A stretch of 64,000 nt of DNA from Escherichia coli (GCF_013122565.1 NZ_CP053258.1), one strand, 5' to 3'. Shown: positions 12,001 to 17,478, counted from the first letter of the stretch. Made by a program: numbers and translations. Notes: generated by a model from the sequence alone, not told the origin.

Positions 12001-15000
12001 AGCAGCGTTAATCACATCGTCGCCGGAAACGGTGTTAATGGAAATCGCCACCGCCGCCAGATCGACGGTGACTGGATGGGTGATAGTCGTAGTCGTTTCT
12101 GCAGTGTTAGTGCCGCTTACAATGATATTCACTGTACCCGCTGGCCAGTTGCCCACGTCTGCTGCCGGAACGCCAACGCTCCATGTGCCATCGGCTAATA
12201 CTGTCGCGCCATAGGTGACGTTATTGATCACCACCGTCAGCGCCGCGCCCGCCGCCAGCCCGCTGCTGCTACCAGTTATCACCAGTGCCTGACCGTGTTC
12301 GATGCTGTTAACCACATCATCGCCCGCCACGGTATCGACGCGCAGGCCTGGCAGGTTGGCGTCGATAGTAATATCTCGCGAACCGCTGCCGGTATTGCCA
12401 ACGCCGTTGGTCACTGAGGCGTTAACCGTCAAGTCGCCATTACCGATGGCCTGAATATCCGCCGCCGGAACGTCCACGCTCCAGCTTAGATTCCCCTGCA
12501 CGGTAGCGGTGTAGGTTTTCCCGCCAAGCGTCACGGTAACCGTATCGCCCGCCGCCGCGCCCGTCACCTGGCCGCTGATGGTCTGCGCTACGCCCGATTC
12601 GGCGGCGTTAATAATATCGTCGCTCGCCACCGGATTAATGGTGACGCCAGGCAGCGCGGTATTGACCTGCACGTTATGGCTGGCGGAATTGCTGTTGCCT
12701 GCGCGGTCGGTGACGTTCGCCGTCACCGTGTAGCTGGCTTCGCCCAGCGCACCTACTGCGGAAGCAGGCACTATGGTGCTCCAGTTGCCTGCAGCGTCCG
12801 TCGTCGCAGTGTAATTTTGCCCGTTCAGCGTCAGCGTAATTGTCGTGCCTGCTGGCTGATTACTGGTGCCGGAAATTTGCAGATCCGCGCCTTTTTCGGT
12901 GGCGTTAATCACGTCATCGGTGGCGATGGTGTTAATGCCAATGGTCGGCGCGGTCAGATTCACTGTAACTGTGCGGCTGGCATCATCGCTATTGCCTGCC
13001 GCGTCGGTAATGCTGACAGTGATGGTTTGCGGGCCGCTGCCAAGCGCGGTGACATCTGCCGCCGGAACGCCGACGCTCCAGTTGCCGGAGGCGTCCAGCG
13101 TTGTTGTATAGGTTTTACTGTTTAGCGTGACGGTGACGACATCCCCCGCTTCTCCGCCCGTGCTGGAGCCGGAAATCACCAGCGCCTGCCCGTGTTCGGC
13201 GGCGTTGATAATATCATCGCCCGCAATGGTGTTGATGGTGAGTACCGGAACGGTGAGATCCACCGCCAGATTATGCGTGGTGCTCGCCGGGTTGCCCGCT
13301 TTGTCATTGACCGTGGCGGTCAGGGTGTGGCTGCCATCCGTCAATGCCGCAAGATCTGCCGCCGGAATGTTAATACTCCAGCTACCATCGGCCTGTACCG
13401 TTGCCTGATACGTATGCACGGTCGGGCTATTGAGCGTTACCGTAACAATCTGCCCTGCTTCAGCGGTGGTGCTGCCGCTCACCGTCACACCCGCATCGGC
13501 TTCGCTGGCGTTGACGATATTGTCGCTGGCGACGGTATTGATAATGATGGTTGGCGCGCTGCTGTCGACGCTGTAGTTATGCACCGCCGAGGCGCTATTG
13601 CCGTTGATATTGCTGACGCTGGCCTGCGCGGAGGCGCTGCCCTCTGGTAATGCCGCTAAATCGGCGGCAGGTACGGTGGCAGTCCAGCTACCATCGCTCG
13701 CTACGCTGGCGGTGTAATTTTTCCCGCCAAAGGTAACGGTGACGGTTTGACCGGGTTCTACATTAGTGGTGGTGCCGGAAAGGGTTAAATCAGCGCCTTT
13801 TTCTGCGGCGTTAATCACATCATCCGTGGCGATGGTGTTGATGGTAATCGCCGCCGGCGTGAGATCGACCGTAACCGGATGCGTAATGCTCACCGGATTT
13901 TCGGCGCTACTTTCCCCTGAAACGACAATATTAACCGTCCCCGCAGGCCAGGCGCTAACCTGCGCCGCCGTGACGCCCACGCTCCAGCTACCATCGGCCT
14001 GCACCGCAGTGGTGTATTCCACATTATTAATCGTAACGGTAAGCGGCGTGCCTTCTGCCAGCCCCGAGCTGCTGCCGGTGACAACCAGCGCCTGCCCGTG
14101 TTCGATGATATTGACCACATCATCGCCCGCCACCGTATCGACCCGCAGGCCGGGCAGATTGGCGTCGATGGTGATATCCCGCGTGCCGCTGCCGGTGTTG
14201 CCGTTTTGATTGGTGACTGAGGCACTCACCGTTAAATCGCCATTGCCCAGCGCCTGAATATCTGCCGCCGGAACGCTCACGCTCCAGCTTAAATTATCCT
14301 GCACGGTGGTGGTGTAGGTATTACCGCCCAGCGTAACGGTTACCGCGTCGCCAACTGCGGCTCCAGTAACCTGCCCTATGATGGTTTGCGGTACGCCCGC
14401 TTCGGCGGCGTTAATAATATCGTCGGTTGCCACCGGATTAATGGTCACACCGGGCAGCGCACTGTCGACCAGCACGTTATGGCTGGCGGTGTTGCTGTTG
14501 CCGATACTACTGGTCACCGCCGCTGTTACCGTGTAGTTGGCCTGGCCCAGTGCGGTTACTGCCGATGCCGGAACGGTGACGCTCCAGTTGCCGGAGGCGT
14601 CGGTCGTGGTGGTGTAATTTTGCCCGTTTAGCGTTACGGTGATGGCGGTATTAACAGGCTGATCGCTGGTGCCGGTAATCTGGACATCGGCTCCTTTTTC
14701 GCTGGCGTTAATCACATCATCGCCCGCAATGCTGTTAATGCCGATAAGGGGCGCGGCGGTATTGACCGTGACGGTCAATGACTGGCTGCCCGTGTTTCCG
14801 GCTTTGTCGGTTACCGAGACGCTGACAGGATAACTGCCGTCCACCAGTCCGCTGACAACGGAAGCCGGAACACCCAGACTCCAGTTGCCGGAACCATCCA
14901 CCACCGTGGTGTAATCCACATTATTCAGCGTAACGGTGACGATATCGCCCGCCTGAGCGCCAGTAACCGTGCCGCTGATGATTTGCGCCTGGGTGTGTTC

Positions 15001-16500
15001 CGGCGTGTTGATGACGTTATCGGTCGCCACCGGATTAATGGTTACCACCGGCGGCGTGGCATCCACCAGCGCCACCCGTGAAACGCTGCTCGGGTTACCG
15101 GCGACATCGTTCACGCTGGCGGTGACCGTGGCGTTGCCGTCAGCCAGTGCGTCAACGTTGGCGGCGGGAACGGTCACGCTCCAGGTGCCGTCTGGCTGCA
15201 CGACGCCCTGATAGGTTTGCCCATTCAACGTAACGGTCACCGTCTGCCCCGGCTGGGCGTCAGTGGTGCCGGTGATGGGCAGATCCTGCCCGCTTTCGGC
15301 GGCGTTAATGATGTTATCGGCGGTCAGTGGATCGATGCTTAAGGCCGGGGCCAGGCTATCGACGGTAATGGTGCGGGAGGTGTTGCCGGTATTGCCGCTG
15401 AGATCCGTCACAGAAGCGGTAATCGCCACCGCGCCGTCAGGCAGATTTCCCATCGCGGCGGCAGGTACCGTCAGACTCCAGGAGCCATCGGCCTGCACGG
15501 TAGTGGTAAAACTCTGTCCAGCCAGGGTTACTGTGACGGTTTGTCCTGTCTCGGCCTGTTGAGTGCTACCGGTAAGGGTCAGTGGCGCACCTTTTTCTGC
15601 GCCACTGATAATGTCATCGCCAGAGACGGTGTTAATGGTGATCAACGGAGAAACACCGACCAGCGTGATTGCTCGAGACGCCGCGCCGGTATTTCCTGCA
15701 GCATCTGTCACGGTGACGAAAATCGTATTGGCACCGCGATCCAGCGTGCGGGTTACCGCTGGGTCCAGCGCCACATTCCAGCTGCCATCTGCCAGCACAA
15801 TGCCCGTCAGGACATGAGTGCCCAATTTCACCGTTACCGTATCGCCAGGAGAAGCACCGCTGACTTGTCCGGAGATGATCTGCGCGACGGCCTGCTCAGC
15901 ATTATTAAGAATATCGTCGCCCGCTACGGTATTAACACTGACCACGGGTGCTGAGGTATCTACCGTGAAATTGGCGCTGTGGCTGGTGCTGTTCCCTGCC
16001 CGATCGCTGACACTGGCATTGACAGCGTAATTACCCTCCGCCAGTGCCTGGACCTCCGTGGCAGGCAGCGTCACTTGCCAGGTTCCGTCGCTACCGACGG
16101 TTGCTGTATGGCCTTTCCCGTTTACGGTCAGTGTTACGGTTTGCCCCGCTTCTGCATTCGACGTGCCGCTCAGTACCAGCGCAGCGTTATGTTCCGCAGC
16201 ACTGATGATGTTGTCCTGAGCGATGGTGTTGATGGCAAGCGTTGGCGGTTGGGTATCGACCGTTAGCAGCTGCGCGCCGGTGACCGTATTGCCTGTGGCG
16301 TCTTTCCCACTGACCAGCACCGCCTGATTCCCTTCGCCTAACGCCTGTGCATCGGCGGTCGGTACTTGTACGCTCCAGGCACCGTTAGCGCCTACGCTGG
16401 TGGTGTAGGTTTTGCCGTTTAGCGTAACGGTGAGTTCTGTTCCCTGTGCCAAATGACTACTGGTGCCAGAAAGCGTAAACCCGGCGGCCTGTTCGCTGGC
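1..16500 (-). repeat. Tandem coding repeats, unit ~300 bp (~100 aa Ig-like domain), dozens of copies
   Basis: Plus-strand spurious ORFs in the track recur with ~300-bp spacing and related translations (e.g. starts at 155, 500, 794; 1742, 2042; 4136, 4442, 4733). The nucleotide sequence is visibly periodic and G+C-rich. Confidence 0.85.
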
Positions 16501-17376
16501 GTTAATAATGTTATCGCCTGCGGTGGTGGCAACCTGCACGCTGGCCTGACTATTGTCGATGGTTAACGTTATCGAACCGGCGTCAGTGATGGTACTGCCG
16601 ACAATTTGCACCACTGACCAGGTATGTTCACCTGCACTTTGCGTGGGTAACGAGACACTCCAGTGACCGTTGTTGTCTACCTGAGTACTGGCAATAGTAT
16701 TGCCGTTACTGTCTTTAATCTGAATAGTCGCCCCCGCCTGCCCGCTGCCGCTAAAGGTTGGCGTGGTGTCATCGGTGATGTCATTGGTGGCGAGAATGCC
16801 GCGCTGATCGCCCTGATTATCGGTAACTAAAAATGATGGAGTGGCAACACCCGGTTCAGGCACAGGCTCAGCGGGTGGCGTAGGGTTATTAATCACTTCC
16901 GTTTTCGAGTCGCCATCACCACCGCTTGCCAGCAGTGCACCAAGCGCGCCACCGCCTACCGCCGCCCCCGCCAGCCATCCCCACGGGAAGGCGCTGGTCT
17001 GAGCAACGGTATCAAGAAATGGCGCAATGCTTTCAATCGCAGTGGTCTGGGCAGTCAGTTCTACTGGGGCTAATCCACCCGCAGCAGTATCGGCAAAGGT
17101 GACATGGGTTAACTGTTGCCCATCGGCAAACACCAGTTCCGATTGTTCAGCCGTATTTGCCGCTTGCAGGAAATAACCGTTGCAGCGGATCACCGTGCCG
17201 TCCTGCATATAGATCAGCAGGTCATTTCCTTCACGGACGTAACGCGCAACGGCAGAGGCCTGAGCATGAACCTGCACCACGGAAGGCTCATAAATAACAA
17301 CCGTGACGTCGCCAGGATTAATCAGCGTTTGTTTGACGGATGTTTTACGCGAAATAACATCAATAATCAGGCTCAT
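1..17376 (-). CDS. Giant surface/secreted adhesin (BapA-like N-terminal domain + tandem bacterial Ig-like repeat domains), putative T1SS substrate; 5' end in window, 3' end beyond left edge (partial, >=5792 codons)
   Basis: Hand translation of the minus strand from ATG 17376..17374 (AGGAA Shine-Dalgarno ~8 nt upstream; in-frame TAA at 17409..17407) gives MSLIIDVISRKTSVKQTLINPGDVTVVIYEPSVVQVHAQASAVARYVREGNDLLIYMQDGTVIRCNGYFLQAANTAEQSELVFADGQQLTHVTFAD..., with no Sec-type signal peptide. Hand translation of 180..1 gives ...WTTLTVIGTSWSYADGRTLTDGTWNYTVRVVDLAGNVGQTATQNVVVDTTSPEVAKSITI, a typical Ig-like adhesin repeat. The ORF track reports no complete ORF in this minus frame between 1 and 17376, while all other frames are chopped into 60-280 aa pieces; this implies one uninterrupted frame with no stop before the edge. 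Confidence 0.85.
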   Translation of the reverse strand, partial: MSLIIDVISRKTSVKQTLINPGDVTVVIYEPSVVQVHAQASAVARYVREGNDLLIYMQDGTVIRCNGYFLQAANTAEQSELVFADGQQLTHVTFADTAAGGLAPVELTAQTTAIESIAPFLDTVAQTSAFPWGWLAGAAVGGGALGALLASGGDGDSKTEVINNPTPPAEPVPEPGVATPSFLVTDNQGDQRGILATNDITDDTTPTFSGSGQAGATIQIKDSNGNTIASTQVDNNGHWSVSLPTQSAGEHTWSVVQIVGSTITDAGSITLTIDNSQASVQVATTAGDNIINASEQAAGFTLSGTSSHLAQGTELTVTLNGKTYTTSVGANGAWSVQVPTADAQALGEGNQAVLVSGKDATGNTVTGAQLLTVDTQPPTLAINTIAQDNIISAAEHNAALVLSGTSNAEAGQTVTLTVNGKGHTATVGSDGTWQVTLPATEVQALAEGNYAVNASVSDRAGNSTSHSANFTVDTSAPVVSVNTVAGDDILNNAEQAVAQIISGQVSGASPGDTVTVKLGTHVLTGIVLADGSWNVALDPAVTRTLDRGANTIFVTVTDAAGNTGAASRAITLVGVSPLITINTVSGDDIISGAEKGAPLTLTGSTQQAETGQTVTVTLAGQSFTTTVQADGSWSLTVPAAAMGNLPDGAVAITASVTDLSGNTGNTSRTITVDSLAPALSIDPLTADNIINAAESGQDLPITGTTDAQPGQTVTVTLNGQTYQGVVQPDGTWSVTVPAANVDALADGNATVTASVNDVAGNPSSVSRVALVDATPPVVTINPVATDNVINTPEHTQAQIISGTVTGAQAGDIVTVTLNNVDYTTVVDGSGNWSLGVPASVVSGLVDGSYPVSVSVTDKAGNTGSQSLTVTVNTAAPLIGINSIAGDDVINASEKGADVQITGTSDQPVNTAITVTLNGQNYTTTTDASGNWSVTVPASAVTALGQANYTVTAAVTSSIGNSNTASHNVLVDSALPGVTINPVATDDIINAAEAGVPQTIIGQVTGAAVGDAVTVTLGGNTYTTTVQDNLSWSVSVPAADIQALGNGDLTVSASVTNQNGNTGSGTRDITIDANLPGLRVDTVAGDDVVNIIEHGQALVVTGSSSGLAEGTPLTVTINNVEYTTAVQADGSWSVGVTAAQVSAWPAGTVNIVVSGESSAENPVSITHPVTVDLTPAAITINTIATDDVINAAEKGADLTLSGTTTNVEPGQTVTVTFGGKNYTASVASDGSWTATVPAADLAALPEGSASAQASVSNINGNSASAVHNYSVDSSAPTIIINTVASDNIVNASEADAGVTVSGSTTAEAGQIVTVTLNSPTVHTYQATVQADGSWSINIPAADLAALTDGSHTLTATVNDKAGNPASTTHNLAVDLTVPVLTINTIAGDDIINAAEHGQALVISGSSTGGEAGDVVTVTLNSKTYTTTLDASGNWSVGVPAADVTALGSGPQTITVSITDAAGNSDDASRTVTVNLTAPTIGINTIATDDVINATEKGADLQISGTSNQPAGTTITLTLNGQNYTATTDAAGNWSTIVPASAVGALGEASYTVTANVTDRAGNSNSASHNVQVNTALPGVTINPVASDDIINAAESGVAQTISGQVTGAAAGDTVTVTLGGKTYTATVQGNLSWSVDVPAADIQAIGNGDLTVNASVTNGVGNTGSGSRDITIDANLPGLRVDTVAGDDVVNSIEHGQALVITGSSSGLAAGAALTVVINNVTYGATVLADGTWSVGVPAADVGNWPAGTVNIIVSGTNTAETTTTITHPVTVDLAAVAISINTVSGDDVINAAEKSADLTLSGSTSGVEAGQTVTVTFGGKTYTATVAGDGSWTTTVPAADLSALRDGDATVQASVSTINGNTASATHAYSVDATAPTLAINTIATDDILNAAEAGNPLTISGSSSAEAGQTVTVTLNGVTYSGTVLADGSWSVSVPTADLSNLTASQYTVSASVSDKAGNPASTTHGLAVDLTVPVLTINTVSGDDIINAAEHGQALVISGSSTGGEAGDVITVTLNSKTYTTTLDASGNWSVGVPLSDVTALGSGPHTITAAITDAAGNSDDASRTVTVNLTAPTIGINTIADDNVINATEKGADLQITGTSNQPAGTTITVTLNGQNYTATTDSNGNWSATVPASAVSALGEANYTVTANVTDTAGNSNSASHNVLVNSALPAVTINAVATDDIINAAESGNAQTISGQVTGAAQGDTVTVTLGGNTYTATVQSNLSWSVDVPAADIQALGNGDLTVNASVTNGVGNTGSGSRDITIDANLPGLRVDTVAGDDVINSIEHNQALVITGSSSGLTAGTALTVEINNVTYGATVLADGTWSLGVPAVDVSNWPAGTVNITVSGTNSAGTTSTITHPVTVDLAGVAITINTLSGDDVINAVEKGETLVVSGSTSGVESGQTVTVTFGGKNYTTTVEANGSWTVNVPPADLASLPDGAGNVQASVSNINGNNAQADRTYSVDATAPLVTINTIASDDILNVSEAGAGITISGTTTAQAGQTLTVTLNNNTYQTTVQADGTWSVNVPAADLSGLTASSYTVTATVSDKAGNPASADHALAVDVTAPDLTINTVAGDDIINAIEHGQALVVSGTSTGAEPGDVVTVTLNGKNYTTTLDASGNWSVGIPAADVTALATGSQTITASLSDRAGNSDSTTHNVTVDLSGPTLTISIVSGDDIINNAEKTQDLTISGGSSGLAAGTTVTVMLNGLAYSATTDGSGNWSVTVPASAVGALGEAVYSISASATDSAGNSGSTTHTVNVESLLPGVIINTVAGDDIINAAEIIVAQTISGQVTGTAVAGNTVIVTIGGNQYTATVQPDLSWSVSVPANVLQALGNGELTISASVTNSANNTGTATHDIVIDANLPGLRVDTVAGDDVINSIEHTQALVVTGSSSGLVAGAALTVVINGVTYGATVLADGTWSVGVSAADVGNWPAGTVNIAVSGTNTAGTTTSISHPVTVDLAAVAITINTLSTDDVINAAEKGSDLQLSGTTSGVEVGQTITVIFGGKSYTTTVATGGTWGLTIPAADLATLPDGAANVQASVSNVAGNIAQATHAYTVDATAPSVTINTIASDDILNANEADSALTISGTSTAEAGQTVTVTLNGVNYSGNVQADGSWSVSVPTGDLANLTASSYTVNASVSDKAGNPASATHNLTVDLVAPVVTINTVAGDDIINATEHGQAQIISGSATGATTGNTVSVTIGSNTYTTVLDANGNWSIGVPASVISALAQGDVTITATVTDSAGNSGTASHTVTVALGAPILSINTIAVDDIINATEKGADLAITGTSNQPAGTQITITLNGQNYTTTADASGNWSVTVPASRVSALGEATYTVTAAATDTDGNSGSASHNVQVNTALPGVTINVVASDDIINAAEAGAGQTISGQVTGAAAGDTVTVTLGGATYTATVQANLSWSVDVPAPALQALGNGELTISASVTNSVGNTGNGTREITIDANLPGLRVDTVAGDDVVNIIEHNQALVITGSSSDLAAGSNVTLTINGQTYVAAVLADGSWSVGVPAADVSAWPAGKVTITASGNTTAGNPVSVTHPVTVDLTAVAVSINAITVDDVINAAEKGAALTLSGSTSGVEAGQTVTVTFGGKTYSATVAANGSWSTSVPAADMAALRDGDASAQASVSNVNGNSATTTHAYSVDASAPTVTINTIAGDDILNAAEAGAALTITGSSTAEAGQTVTVTLNGTNYTGTVQTDGSWSVSVPPADLSALTASNYTVNAAVSDKAGNPASVNHNLTVDTSVPVVTINTVAGDDVINATEHTQAQIISGSATGAATGSTVTVTIGTNTFTTVLDASGNWSVGVPASVVSALANGTVTINASVTDAGGNSGSTTHQVTVNTGLPTITFNSISGDNVLNADEKGQPLTISGNSTGLATGAQVTVTLNGHNYSATTDAAGNWTLTVPVSDLAALGQANYTVSVSATSAAGNTASSQANLLVDSGLPGVTISTVAGDDIINAAEAGAGQTISGQVTGAAAGDTVTVTLGGATYTATVQANLSWSVDVPASALQALGNGELTISASVTNSVGNTGNGTREITIDANLPGLRIDTVAGDDVVNIIEHDQALVITGSSSDLAAGSNVTLTINGQTYVAAVLADSTWSVGIPAADVSAWPAGTVTITASGNTTAGNPVSVSHPFTVDLTAVAISINTVASDDVINAAEKGTDLIISGSTSGIESGQTVTVTFGGKTYTASVAANGSWSVTVPAADLATLPDGAANVQASVSSASGNSASATHAYSVDASAPTLTINTIASDDILNATEAGNPLTISGTSTAETGQAVTVTLNGATYTGTVQADGSWSISVPISALDALSASNYTVSATVNDKAGNPGSASHNLAVDTTAPVLTINTVAGDDIINDAEHAQALVISGTSTGGEAGDVVSVVLNGKTYTTTLDASGNWSVGVPAADVTALGSGAQTITASVSDRARNSDDASRTVTVSLSAPVISINTIAGDDVINATEKGSDLALSGTSDQPAGTAITVTLNGQNYSATTDASGNWSVTVPASAVSALGEATYSVTASVTNAQGNSSTASHNVQVNTALPGVTINPVATDDIINASEAGSAQTISGQVTGAAAGSTVTVELGGKTYTATVQADLSWYVSVPAADWQALGNGELTVNASVTNAVGNTGSGTRDITIDASLPGLRVDTVAGDDVVNIIEHSQAQVITGSSTGFAAGTALTVVINNQTYAATVLANGSWSVGVPATDVSNWPAGTLNITVSGANSAGTQTSITHPLTVDLTTVAISINAITPDDVINAAEKGAALTLSGSTSGVETGQTVTITFGGKTYTTTVAANGSWSTTVPAADMAALRDGDASAQVRVTNVNGNSATATHEYSVDSAAPTVTINTIASDNIINASEAAAGVTVSGTSTAQTGQTLTVTLNGTNYQTTVQADGSWSLTLPATDLTALANNGYTLTATVSDLAGNPGSASKGVTVDTTAPVISFNTVAGDDVINNVEHTQAQIISGTATGAVAGDRLVVTIAGQQYVTSTDASGNWSVGVPASVISGLADGTVTISATITDSAGNSSTQTHNVQVNTAAVSLSVSTISGDNLINAAEAGSALTLSGTGTNFAAGTVVTVLLNGKGYSATIQSNGSWSVNVPAADVAALADGTSYTVSASAQDSAGNSATASRSVAVDLTAPIISINTVSTDDRLNAAEQQQPLTLNGSTSAEVGQTVTVTFGGKTYTATVAANGTWALNVPAADLAALGQGAQTITASVNDRAGNPGQTTHALTVDTVAPTVTIATVAGDDIINNAEQLAGQTISGTTTAEVGQTVTVTFNGQTWTATVGSGGSWSVFIPAQQFAGLSDGSYTISATVADQAGNPGSASRGVTLNGDVPTITINTFAGDDVVNAAEHGSSLVISGTTTAPVGQTLTLTLNGKTYTTTVQTGGSWSYTLGSADVTALADGNAYVINASVSNAIGNNGSSNHTITVDLSAPAMGINIDSLQADTGLSASDFITSVSPVVVNGSLTAALASNETAQISIDGGVTWTTLTVTGTTWRYNDSRTLTDGNYLYQVRVIDAAGNVGATDSQNVVIDTTAPDPAVKTIAISAITTDTGLITNDFVTSDTTLAVSGTLGAALSAGEFAQISIDGGTTWQNLSVSGLTWSYLDGRTLTDGNYNYQVRVIDTAGNIGATASQIVTVDTTAPLASKTIAIAGISDDTGLSSSDFVTRDTTLTVRGTLGAALAADERAQISLDGGVTWTTLTVIGTSWSYADGRTLTDGTWNYTVRVVDLAGNVGQTATQNVVVDTTSPEVAKSITI
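2942..14200 (-). repeat. Higher-order super-repeat, period ~1794-1800 bp (six ~300-bp units), at least 6 tandem copies
   Basis: Equivalent track ORFs beginning MPPKVTVTVCP/MTVCP recur at about 2942, 4733, 6530, 8324, 10124, 11921 and 13721. Other families recur at the same spacing (5632 vs 7429; 5120 vs 6905; 11072 vs 12866). Confidence 0.8.
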
Positions 17377-17388
17377 AATGGCATTCCT

Positions 17389-17424
17389 GATAAATGGCGC
17401 ACATCCTTAGCGAGTCCATTTATC
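17389..17424 (-). promoter_or_regulatory. Perfect 9-bp inverted repeat (GATAAATGG-N18-CCATTTATC) in the OMP-adhesin spacer, abutting the adhesin Shine-Dalgarno
   Basis: Read directly from the sequence: arms at 17389..17397 and 17416..17424. Function is unknown (hairpin or dimeric-regulator site). Confidence 0.35.
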
Positions 17425-17478
17425 TAAATAAGACAAAGGTAATCACTTAACAACGGCCCACTATTAATAATGGCAGGA

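What the first reader, a model, noticed from the sequence alone, without database searches (positions are those of the whole stretch)
17377..17478. Perfect 9-bp inverted repeat abutting the adhesin ribosome-binding site in the 102-bp OMP-adhesin spacer
GATAAATGG-N18-CCATTTATC (17389..17424) sits between the OMP stop and the adhesin ATG. On the transcript the 3' arm ends immediately before the AGGAA Shine-Dalgarno. It could be a hairpin that sets the OMP:adhesin expression ratio by partial termination or translational occlusion, or a binding site for a dimeric regulator. No T-tract follows, so it is not a classical terminator.
Basis: seen in the sequence. Interest (0 to 1): 0.4.

Follow-up and report, generated by a model that had tools for sequence, protein, structure and literature searches.

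The report
Hairpin before giant adhesin start codon
The inverted repeat is real and lies in the untranslated gap between the outer-membrane channel gene and the giant adhesin gene of E. coli O-island 28; it can fold into a modest RNA hairpin whose loop, together with the adjacent ribosome-binding site, looks like a standard two-part docking site for the translational repressor CsrA, but only sequence supports this, so it is an ordinary, testable lead.

Summary
GATAAATGG-N18-CCATTTATC is at 17389..17424, in the 102-nt spacer between tolC28 (stop 17481..17479) and the adhesin gene siiEA/rtxA28 (ATG 17376) of E. coli O-island 28. The 3' arm ends one base before AGGAA.

Locally it exceeds chance: 0.4% of spacer shuffles contain such a repeat, and the isolated hairpin folds at -12.7 kcal/mol. 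It is not exceptional across the window, which holds 20 comparable repeats against 6.3 expected. It is also not stably predicted in longer contexts, where its pair probability ranges from 0 to 1.

The arms are invariant across Escherichia, but so are their flanks, and there is no covariation. The dyad is absent from the other genera sampled. It is not a terminator, not in Rfam, and poorly spaced for a dimeric DNA-binding protein.

The best lead is the apical loop. It reads UAAGGAU-GU, an 8/12 match to the CsrA consensus, and lies 19 nt upstream of the SD GGA. This is the glgC / ColE7 cel / EHEC ehxB layout.

I rate CsrA-mediated translational repression at 0.4, an incidental repeat at 0.3, and another RNA-level role at 0.2. 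If functional, it would be a new member of a known kind. Interest is low to moderate.

The parts
17479..18834 (-). [quoted passage not shown]
   Evidence: 451-aa ORF. RefSeq annotates it as 'TolC family outer membrane protein'. Pfam OEP domain in its homologues. Named in PMC12758282.
17377..17478 (-). 102-nt tolC28-siiEA intercistronic spacer. The 5' part is variable and the 3' ~70 nt is constant within Escherichia.
17416..17424 (-). 5' arm of the dyad on the transcript (GAUAAAUGG)
17389..17397 (-). 3' arm of the dyad (CCAUUUAUC). It ends one base before AGGAA.
17398..17415 (-). 18-nt interior of the hairpin. Predicted inner pairs are 17414:17398, 17412:17400, 17411:17401 and 17410:17402. The apical loop UAAGGAU is 17409..17403.
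   Evidence: Natural variants break the inner pairs.
17401..17408 (-). AAGGAUGU, the 3' eight bases of the CsrA SELEX consensus RUACARGGAUGU. The GGA is 17406..17404. The 12-mer CGCUAAGGAUGU scores 8/12.
   Evidence: Consensus taken from PMC2896534. This is the only A[AG]GGATGT on either strand of the window.
17384..17388 (-). Shine-Dalgarno AGGAA of siiEA. Its GGA is 17387..17385, 19 nt downstream of the loop GGA, and it is the candidate second CsrA site (6/12).
   Evidence: (C)AGGAA or AAGGAG lies at the same distance from the start in orthologues.
1..17376 (-). 5' part of siiEA (rtxA28/rtxB28), the BapA-related giant adhesin. The frame is open for all 5792 codons to the window edge.
   Evidence: RefSeq annotation. 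BapA_N and Big domains in orthologues.
17416..17439 (-). Competing hairpin CCUUUGUCU-UAUUU-AGAUAAA(U)GG, which uses the dyad's 5' arm (-6.6 kcal/mol)
   Evidence: One natural variant breaks a pair.
19115..19128 (-). Context: the published RstA box TAATTCAAATTACC, 294 to 281 nt upstream of the tolC28 ATG. It is the only experimentally supported control site of the island.
   Evidence: for the position. PMC12758282 for EMSA and ChIP evidence.

Best explanation
The dyad is transcribed as part of the tolC28-siiEA message of O-island 28. It folds locally into a stem-loop of 9 bp plus up to 4 inner pairs (-12.7 kcal/mol).

The stem's job is to display the apical loop UAAGGAU(GU), a CsrA-type GGA site, 19 nt upstream of the second GGA in the siiEA Shine-Dalgarno sequence (CAGGAAUG). 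One CsrA dimer docks on the loop site and bridges to the SD. This blocks 30S binding, and probably hastens decay. Synthesis of the 20-kb adhesin gene product is thereby lowered and uncoupled from tolC28, and responds to the Csr system (CsrB/CsrC and, in EHEC, CesT).

Shown here:
- The sequence and its coordinates.
- The stability of the local fold.
- The motif match and the spacing between the two GGA sites.
- Invariance of AAGGAU and of the arms in Escherichia.

Inferred:
- That tolC28 and siiEA are co-transcribed.
- That the hairpin forms in vivo.
- That CsrA binds.
- That translation is repressed.
For: Motif and layout:
- The loop 12-mer CGCUAAGGAUGU matches RUACARGGAUGU at 8/12, with all of ARGGAUGU present. 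Validated ColE7 cel sites match at 9 and 7 of 12.
- The GGA lies in the 7-nt apical loop of the isolated hairpin.
- The second GGA is the SD, 19 nt away. This is inside the 10-63 nt bridging range, whose optimum is above 18 nt (PMC7652899).
- The layout is that of glgC and ColE7 cel: a hairpin-loop site plus an SD site.
- In EHEC itself, CsrA binds an operon-internal stem-loop plus SD upstream of ehxB in another RTX/T1SS operon (PMC9132389).

Chance estimate:
- Only 3.9% of shuffled spacers carry a site of at least 8/12 lying 10-40 nt upstream of the SD.

Conservation and variants:
- AAGGAU is invariant in every Escherichia-type spacer seen.
- This includes L074, which has four other substitutions inside the hairpin. 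All four are compatible with keeping a hairpin (-11.0 against -12.9 kcal/mol).

Other genera:
- A GGA lies 16-19 nt upstream of the SD GGA in the Jejubacter-type locus (L028, in a hairpin loop, P unpaired 1.00), in the Pluralibacter-type locus (L027, 0.84) and in Enterobacter-type loci.
- The region -62..-11 is more structured than coding background in orthologues (Mann-Whitney p = 0.009 without E. coli).

Precedent:
- Deleting Rsm (CsrA-family) proteins raises surface LapA, a giant RTX adhesin, in P. fluorescens.
Against: - There is no binding or expression data for this locus.
- Sites of at least 8/12 occur 0.78 times per kb per strand in the window, so the motif alone is weak.
- GGA counts in orthologous spacers are only mildly above expectation (41 against 30.3).
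- Most clades lack a loop GGA at the matching position.
- In longer contexts the dyad's pair probability ranges from 0.00 to 1.00. The mean unpaired probability of the loop GGA is 0.34 in spacer plus 18 nt.
- Whole-spacer folds are not significantly stable (z = -1.2 to -1.7).
- The commonest polymorphism (G17402A) removes consensus position 11 and the loop-closing pair.
- One lineage carries an uncompensated 1-nt deletion in the 5' arm, which weakens the hairpin to -8.2 kcal/mol.
- No pair shows a change on both sides.
Confidence: 0.4

Rival explanations
1. It is an incidental inverted repeat. It would be a neutral feature of an AT-rich spacer in a recently acquired, little-diverged island. 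The only functional element there would be the ribosome-binding site, and the CsrA-like motif would be a chance match.
For: - 20 comparable repeats occur in the window, and about 6 are expected by chance.
- The arms are no better conserved than the flanking ~30 nt.
- No pair shows a change on both sides.
- The dyad is absent from all seven to ten non-Escherichia clades.
- Uncompensated arm changes survive in natural lineages that have an intact siiEA.
- The full-spacer minimum-energy fold does not use the dyad.
- Motif sites of at least 8/12 are common, at 0.78 per kb per strand.
Against: - Local fold stability is in the lowest ~1% of shuffles and of 528 background windows.
- The motif, its loop position and the SD spacing coincide.
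- All four substitutions in L074 keep a hairpin.
- Orthologous leaders are, as a group, more structured than background.
Confidence: 0.3
2. It is an RNA hairpin with a role that does not depend on CsrA. One option is that, after cleavage in the spacer or initiation from a weak internal promoter, it forms a 5' stem-loop that protects the very long siiEA message from 5'-end-dependent decay. Another is that it insulates or partly occludes the RBS, through the UAUUU:GAAUG extension, and so sets the tolC28:siiEA ratio.
For: - The local hairpin is stable.
- A weak extension pairs with GAAUG of the SD.
- Hairpins end 0-5 nt before the SD in L018, L026, L027 and L028.
- Orthologous -62..-11 regions are more structured than background.
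- Weak promoter-like hexamers lie at 17507..17478 and 17487..17460.
- That 5' stem-loops stabilise E. coli mRNAs (for example ompA and papA) is established knowledge, cited from memory.
Against: - In an unbiased scan, the most stable hairpin lies next to the SD in only 3 of 11 orthologues.
- Alternative folds compete with it.
- There is no covariation.
- No processing site or transcription start site is known.
- All five island genes fall together in an rstA mutant, which is most simply explained by one transcript from the tolC28 promoter.
Confidence: 0.2
3. It is a DNA operator bound by a dimeric transcription factor that controls an internal siiEA promoter.
For: - The two half-sites are perfectly symmetric.
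- The 3' ~70 nt of the spacer is retained even where insertions or an IS end replace the 5' part, which would fit a self-contained control region.
Against: - The half-site centres are 27 bp apart, and so lie on opposite faces of the helix.
- There is no sigma-70-like promoter in the 3' half of the spacer.
- Half-sites are not enriched, and none lies upstream of tolC28.
- It resembles neither the RstA box nor any motif I could place.
- It is not conserved outside Escherichia.
Confidence: 0.04
4. It is a partial terminator or attenuator. In this model the two mutually exclusive hairpins (17439..17416 and 17424..17389) would switch read-through into siiEA.
For: - The two alternative hairpins share the segment AGAUAAAUGG.
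- Each is more stable than shuffles (z = -3.1 and -3.3).
Against: - No U-tract follows either hairpin.
- The stems are AT-rich.
- No leader peptide or other sensing element is present.
- A ribosome stopping at the tolC28 UAA lies about 40 nt from the first hairpin.
- A natural variant (T to C in CCTTTGTCT) breaks the upstream hairpin.
Confidence: 0.04

Closest known systems
CsrA-binding leader of ehxB inside the EHEC ehxCABD (RTX haemolysin / T1SS) operon (PMC9132389)
   Same: - It is found in the same organism group.
- It also lies inside an RTX / type I secretion operon, not at its 5' end.
- It is a well-matched stem-loop carrying GGA sites next to or over the SD of the downstream gene.
- CsrA represses its translation and promotes decay.
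   Different: - In ehxB both GGA sites lie on the hairpin that overlaps the SD. Here the hairpin ends just before the SD, and the second GGA is the SD itself.
- The regulated gene here is the substrate (the adhesin), not the transporter.
- Binding was shown for ehxB. It has not been tested here.
ColE7 cea-cei-cel operon: T1 stem-loop plus cel SD as a two-site CsrA operator (PMC2896534)
   Same: - It is an intercistronic hairpin with GGA in its loop, plus a GGA in the SD of the next gene.
- The consensus matches are of similar quality (9 and 7 of 12 there; 8 and 6 of 12 here).
   Different: - T1 is also a transcription terminator. The hairpin here has no U-tract and an 18-nt interior.
- Binding and mutational evidence exist only for cel.
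glgC leader, the archetypal CsrA 'tether and bridge' site (reviewed in PMC7652899)
   Same: - An upstream hairpin-loop GGA tethers a CsrA dimer that bridges to the SD GGA.
- The inter-site distance is within 10-63 nt (19 nt here).
   Different: - glgC is the first gene of its transcript and has a mapped 5' UTR. Here the site lies between two cistrons, and no transcript map exists.
Intercistronic or 5' stem-loops that stabilise downstream mRNA segments (ompA 5' UTR, papB-papA); cited from memory
   Same: - It is a stem-loop just upstream of an RBS in a message whose downstream part may need a different level or lifetime.
   Different: - Those elements have mapped RNase E sites or 5' ends. None is known here.

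Membership tests
CsrA/RsmA two-site translational operator (glgC / cel / ehxB type) | GGA core motifs in the leader of the regulated gene | tested here: met
   GGA occurs at 17406..17404 (loop), at 17387..17385 (SD) and at 17417..17415 (stem/loop junction).
CsrA/RsmA two-site translational operator (glgC / cel / ehxB type) | Resemblance to the SELEX consensus RUACARGGAUGU at the level of validated sites | tested here: met
   The loop site scores 8/12, with all of ARGGAUGU present. The SD site scores 6/12. Validated cel sites score 9 and 7. The base rate of sites of at least 8/12 is 0.78 per kb per strand, and 3.9% of shuffled spacers have one in the right interval.
CsrA/RsmA two-site translational operator (glgC / cel / ehxB type) | [quoted passage not shown] | tested here: inconclusive
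   It is in the loop in the isolated hairpin and in the 51-65-nt contexts. The dyad's pair probability falls to 0.00-0.09 in some longer contexts, and the mean unpaired probability of the GGA is 0.34.
CsrA/RsmA two-site translational operator (glgC / cel / ehxB type) | One site overlaps the Shine-Dalgarno sequence | tested here: met
   CAGGAAUG at 17389..17382, 8 nt before the ATG.
CsrA/RsmA two-site translational operator (glgC / cel / ehxB type) | Inter-site distance of 10-63 nt, with an optimum above 18 nt | tested here: met
   The distance is 19 nt from GGA to GGA. The range is taken from PMC7652899.
CsrA/RsmA two-site translational operator (glgC / cel / ehxB type) | CsrA binds the RNA, and expression changes in a csrA mutant | not testable with these tools
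   No CLIP-seq, EMSA or csrA transcriptome data covering z0608/z0609 were found.
Intrinsic (Rho-independent) terminator | G+C-rich stem with a short loop, followed by a U-tract | tested here: not met
   Only 3 of 9 arm pairs are G-C, the interior is 18 nt, and the stem is followed by AGGAAUGCC. The scanner does not call it, although it finds the ybaT terminator at 19160..19138.
Palindromic operator of a dimeric transcription factor | Half-sites spaced so that both face one side of the helix, with further copies at co-regulated promoters and conservation in orthologous loci | tested here: not met
   The centre-to-centre spacing is 27 bp (read from the sequence). The window holds 20 near-matches against 12.8 +/- 3.9 expected, and none lies upstream of tolC28. 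The dyad is absent outside Escherichia.
Curated cis-regulatory RNA families (Rfam 15) | Match to a covariance model | tested here: not met
   Nothing was found in the spacer even at E <= 10.
REP / MITE-type repeated palindromes | Many copies per genome | tested here: not met
   There is exactly one place per genome in 958 E. coli genomes.
Structured RNA conserved by covariation | Compensatory base-pair changes among relatives | tested here: not met
   Of the 13 pairs, 9 never vary, 2 vary on one side only (wobble), 2 are broken in some sequences, and none changes on both sides. Divergence within Escherichia is too low for a fair test.

The most novel reading that the evidence does not exclude
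The hairpin and the SD form a CsrA gate placed specifically in front of the 20-kb adhesin gene and not in front of tolC28. The secretion channel would then follow RstA/Ca2+ transcriptional control, while the costly adhesin is translated only when CsrA is titrated (by CsrB/CsrC or, in EHEC, by CesT after attachment). The competing upstream hairpin (17439..17416) would decide whether the CsrA loop site is displayed. Giant BapA-type adhesin genes in several enterobacterial genera may have arrived independently at the same 'GGA about 18 nt before the SD' solution.
Probability: 0.12. Interest if true: 0.5.

Novelty: new member of a known kind. Interest (0 to 1): 0.27.

Why it matters
[quoted passage not shown] So far only transcriptional control, by RstA upstream of tolC28, is known (PMC12758282). 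If the spacer hairpin is a CsrA operator, the adhesin would also be under post-transcriptional control by the Csr system, which already governs LEE, haemolysin secretion and biofilm. That would explain how a cell could avoid translating a ~6900-codon gene until it is useful. The prediction can be tested cheaply with an EMSA and one translational fusion. If the repeat is merely incidental, nothing is lost: the RBS and start codon are as annotated.

Tried and rejected
1. Rfam scan of 17200..19300 at E <= 10: nothing in the spacer.
2. Promoter and terminator scan: no sigma-70-like site in the 3' half of the spacer and no terminator. My manual search for -35/-10 pairs around the dyad found only 3-4 of 6 matches.
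3. Half-site search with up to 1 mismatch: not enriched.
4. Covariation on 10 distinct Escherichia-type sequences, for both the dyad and the competing hairpin: none.
5. 'The same dyad in orthologues': absent from every non-Escherichia locus.
6. 'The most stable spacer hairpin always abuts the SD': this holds for only 3 of 11 loci, so I rejected it as a rule.
7. Whole-spacer fold z-scores in 8 orthologues: all between -1.3 and +0.95.
8. RNAalifold on 20 Enterobacter/Lelliottia-type spacers: it predicts three small upstream hairpins but no supported SD-adjacent hairpin. The covariation term is only -0.46 kcal/mol.
9. GGA enrichment against dinucleotide shuffles: weak overall (41 against 30.3) and significant only in L028.
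10. Fur, IHF and RstA motif comparisons by eye: no convincing match.
11. An upstream in-frame start or a leader peptide: none is plausible. The 14-codon out-of-frame ORF starting at 17404 has no spacing after its SD-like AAGG.
12. MITE or REP idea: rejected, because there is a single copy per genome.
13. Literature search for OI-28 locus tags together with CsrA: no data on this junction.
14. P0031 (Trabulsiella) could not be located in the contig index. L029 has a different gene order and was excluded.

Full report
WHAT AND WHERE

The window is Escherichia coli. The 2-kb stretch around the finding is 98.3% identical to O145:H28 chromosomes, and a 401-nt stretch is 99.5% identical to O157:H7. 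The locus is present once per genome in 958 of 5426 complete E. coli genomes.

RefSeq annotates the two genes as 'TolC family outer membrane protein' and 'siiEA: BapA-related adhesin SiiEA'. They lie downstream of copA-glsA-ybaT. This is O-island 28 of EHEC, with genes tolC28 = z0608 and rtxA28/rtxB28 = z0609/z0615. A paper of December 2025 shows that the island is needed for early adherence. The same paper shows activation by RstA through a box upstream of tolC28 (PMC12758282).

Both genes are on the - strand. tolC28 is 18834..17479. siiEA starts at ATG 17376 and stays open for all 5792 codons to the window edge.

CHECKING THE OBSERVATION

On the transcript strand the spacer is 17478..17377 (102 nt). 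GAUAAAUGG is 17424..17416, the interior is 18 nt, and CCAUUUAUC is 17397..17389. AGGAA is 17388..17384, and the AUG follows 8 nt after AGGA.

RefSeq annotation and the conserved N-terminus in 11 orthologues confirm the start codon.

IS IT MORE THAN CHANCE?

Locally, yes:
- Only 21 of 5000 dinucleotide shuffles of the spacer hold a perfect repeat of at least 9 bp with a 3-30 nt loop.
- The best local 40-nt fold (-14.4 kcal/mol) is reached by 18 of 400 shuffles.
- With four further inner pairs, the isolated 36-mer folds at -12.7 kcal/mol (z = -3.3).

That window contains 20 such repeats where 6.3 +/- 2.3 are expected.

The hairpin is also not robust to context. Its pair probability is 1.00 in 51 nt, 0.42 in 71 nt, 0.00 in the bare spacer, 0.53 in 184 nt and 0.09 in 301 nt. 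It competes with an upstream hairpin, CCUUUGUCU/AGAUAAA(U)GG at 17439..17416 (-6.6 kcal/mol), which uses the same 5' arm. Whole-spacer folds are not significantly stable (z = -1.2 to -1.7).

CONSERVATION WITHIN ESCHERICHIA

The arms are identical in E. coli, E. ruysiae, E. whittamii and Escherichia sp. E1V33. But so are the 17 nt upstream and the 13 nt downstream of the hairpin.

Across 958 genomes, 689 are identical over the 64 nt from 17440 to 17377. The six non-identical genomes I fetched carry these differences:
- G to A at 17402, inside the loop, in four of the six.
- C to T between the SD and the ATG.
- A 1-nt deletion in the 5' arm, in one lineage (CUWW06 and metagenome L051). This leaves a bulge and -8.2 kcal/mol.

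The most divergent relative (L074, adhesin N-terminus 91% identical) has four substitutions inside the hairpin and none in the flanks:
- Two of them give G-U wobbles.
- The other two (A to G next to the 5' arm, A to C in the 3' arm) shift the register to a new GGGC:GCCC helix.
- A hairpin therefore survives, at -11.0 kcal/mol.

A formal pair count finds no pair with changes on both sides. Within Escherichia the data therefore neither prove nor refute a constrained stem.

The 5' half of the spacer, in contrast, is an indel hot spot. It shows a 6-nt indel, 53- and 87-nt insertions, and an IS end.

CONSERVATION OUTSIDE ESCHERICHIA

I collected OMP-adhesin junctions in which the OMP is 57-76% identical. 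They came through the OMP homologues, the species-representative genomes and a metagenome scan with an N-terminal alignment.

The spacers are 41-143 nt long and are unrelated in sequence to the E. coli one. None has the dyad. In L017 the last ~30 nt are alignable (GCCAUUAGCAGGAA), but the stem is gone.

An unbiased scan for the most stable hairpin in each spacer puts it next to the SD in only 3 of 11 loci. There is, however, a group tendency:
- The region -62..-11, chosen from the E. coli hairpin, has z-scores averaging -1.3.
- It is more structured than 528 coding-region windows from the same loci (Mann-Whitney p = 0.003; p = 0.009 without E. coli).
- Several loci (L018, L026, L027, L028) have their own hairpin ending 0-5 nt before the SD.

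WHAT IT IS NOT

- It is not an intrinsic terminator: the arms are AT-rich, the interior is 18 nt and there is no U-tract.
- It is not an Rfam family.
- It is not a repeated element, because there is one copy per genome.
- It is unlikely to be a dimeric operator. The half-site centres are 27 bp apart, no extra half-sites lie upstream of tolC28, and no promoter is nearby.
- The 9-bp stem does not itself cover the SD. Only a weak UAUUU:GAAUG extension does.

THE MOST SPECIFIC LEAD

The apical part of the hairpin is CGC-UAAGGAU-GUG. AAGGAUGU (17408..17401) is the 3' two-thirds of the SELEX CsrA consensus RUACARGGAUGU, whose GGA is normally displayed in a hairpin loop (PMC2896534). The 12-mer scores 8/12, between the two validated ColE7 cel sites (9 and 7).

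The SD (CAGGAAUG) supplies a second GGA 19 nt downstream. This is within the 10-63 nt range, with an optimum above 18 nt, over which one CsrA dimer bridges two sites (PMC7652899).

This is the glgC and cel architecture. In EHEC itself, CsrA binds a stem-loop plus SD upstream of ehxB inside another RTX/T1SS operon (PMC9132389). In P. fluorescens, removing the Rsm proteins raises surface LapA.

The statistics are modest:
- Sites of at least 8/12 occur 0.78 times per kb per strand.
- 3.9% of shuffled spacers have one 10-40 nt upstream of the SD.
- The exact 8-mer is unique in the window.
- GGA is only mildly enriched across orthologous spacers (41 against 30.3).
- A GGA 16-19 nt before the SD GGA recurs in three separate clades (Escherichia, the Enterobacter/Pluralibacter group and L028). 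In L028 and L027 it is predicted to be unpaired.
- AAGGAU is invariant in every Escherichia-type spacer. The common G17402A variant, however, alters consensus position 11.

VERDICT

The repeat is real and can make a respectable local hairpin on the tolC28-siiEA transcript. My probabilities are:
- 0.4 that it is the upstream tether of a two-site CsrA translational operator acting on siiEA.
- 0.3 that it is incidental.
- 0.2 that it has another RNA-level role, in stability, processing or the RBS context.
- Under 0.1 for a DNA operator or an attenuator.

Co-transcription is inferred only from the parallel 3-5-fold drop of all five island genes in an rstA mutant. Folding in vivo, CsrA binding and any regulatory effect are untested.

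Even on the best reading, this is a new member of a well-known class. Its interest lies in giving a cheap, specific experiment on a newly recognised EHEC colonisation factor.

Noticed in passing
window 19115..19128 (- strand): The published RstA box TAATTCAAATTACC lies exactly 294 to 281 nt upstream of the tolC28 ATG (18834), as reported for EDL933. It directly follows the ybaT terminator hairpin (19160..19138).
   Followed up: yes
window 17430..17443 and 19112..19138 (- strand): ATTACCTTT and CCTTTGTCTT each occur twice: once beside the RstA box and once in the tolC28-siiEA spacer just 5' of the dyad. The spacer's GTTAAGTGATTACC carries the ATTACC half of the box. This could be a second weak RstA site or a coincidence.
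   Followed up: partly
window 1..17376 (- strand): The siiEA reading frame is uninterrupted for 5792 codons in this strain. Many RefSeq genomes, including O157:H7 and O145:H28, annotate it as a pseudogene with an internal stop or frameshift; in EDL933 it is split into z0609 and z0615.
   Followed up: partly
window 17441..17478 and loci L002-L004, L060, L069, L074: The 5' third of the spacer is an indel hot spot, while the 3' ~70 nt are retained. It shows a 6-nt indel between E. coli lineages, 53- and 87-nt insertions in two metagenomic Escherichia lineages, and what looks like an IS1 end abutting it in L060.
   Followed up: partly
loci L075-L109, L012, L027 (spacers of about 120 nt): Enterobacter/Lelliottia/Pluralibacter-type OMP-adhesin spacers share a conserved leader. 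It has a G+C hairpin right after the OMP stop (C-G to G-C swaps in 8 of 20 sequences), a UGGG...CCCA hairpin, and a motif CCCAGGGAUAGCUACAUCC that also occurs in Cedecea-type (L026) and L086-L088 spacers. Its function is unknown.
   Followed up: partly
locus L018, about 2885..2925: In this orthologous locus the OMP-adhesin spacer contains a terminator-like hairpin (AAGAGGGAUU...AAUUCCUCUU) followed by a U-run. The two genes may therefore be separate transcription units there.
   Followed up: no
window 18838..18868 (- strand): The tolC28 ribosome-binding region reads CCUGGAAGGAAGUGAC, with two overlapping GGA motifs. It is preceded by a 7-bp hairpin (ACUGGUU-AUAAA-AACCAGU, 18886..18868). tolC28 itself could also be a CsrA target.
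   Followed up: no
loci L013 (1..1284) and L029 (50..1300): Genes encoding PAS-GGDEF(-EAL) proteins lie directly upstream of the OMP gene in two orthologous loci. This hints at c-di-GMP control of these adhesin systems, as in Lap-type systems. E. coli has ybaT there instead.
   Followed up: no
locus L011 (MAG labelled Collinsella sp.): A 2.3-kb contig binned as Collinsella carries the E. coli tolC28-siiEA junction at 99% identity. This is almost certainly binning contamination.
   Followed up: no
window 17333..17360 (+ strand): A promoter-like site (TTGACG-16-TAACAT) inside the first codons of siiEA points antisense across the RBS and the dyad. No terminator follows on that strand.
   Followed up: no
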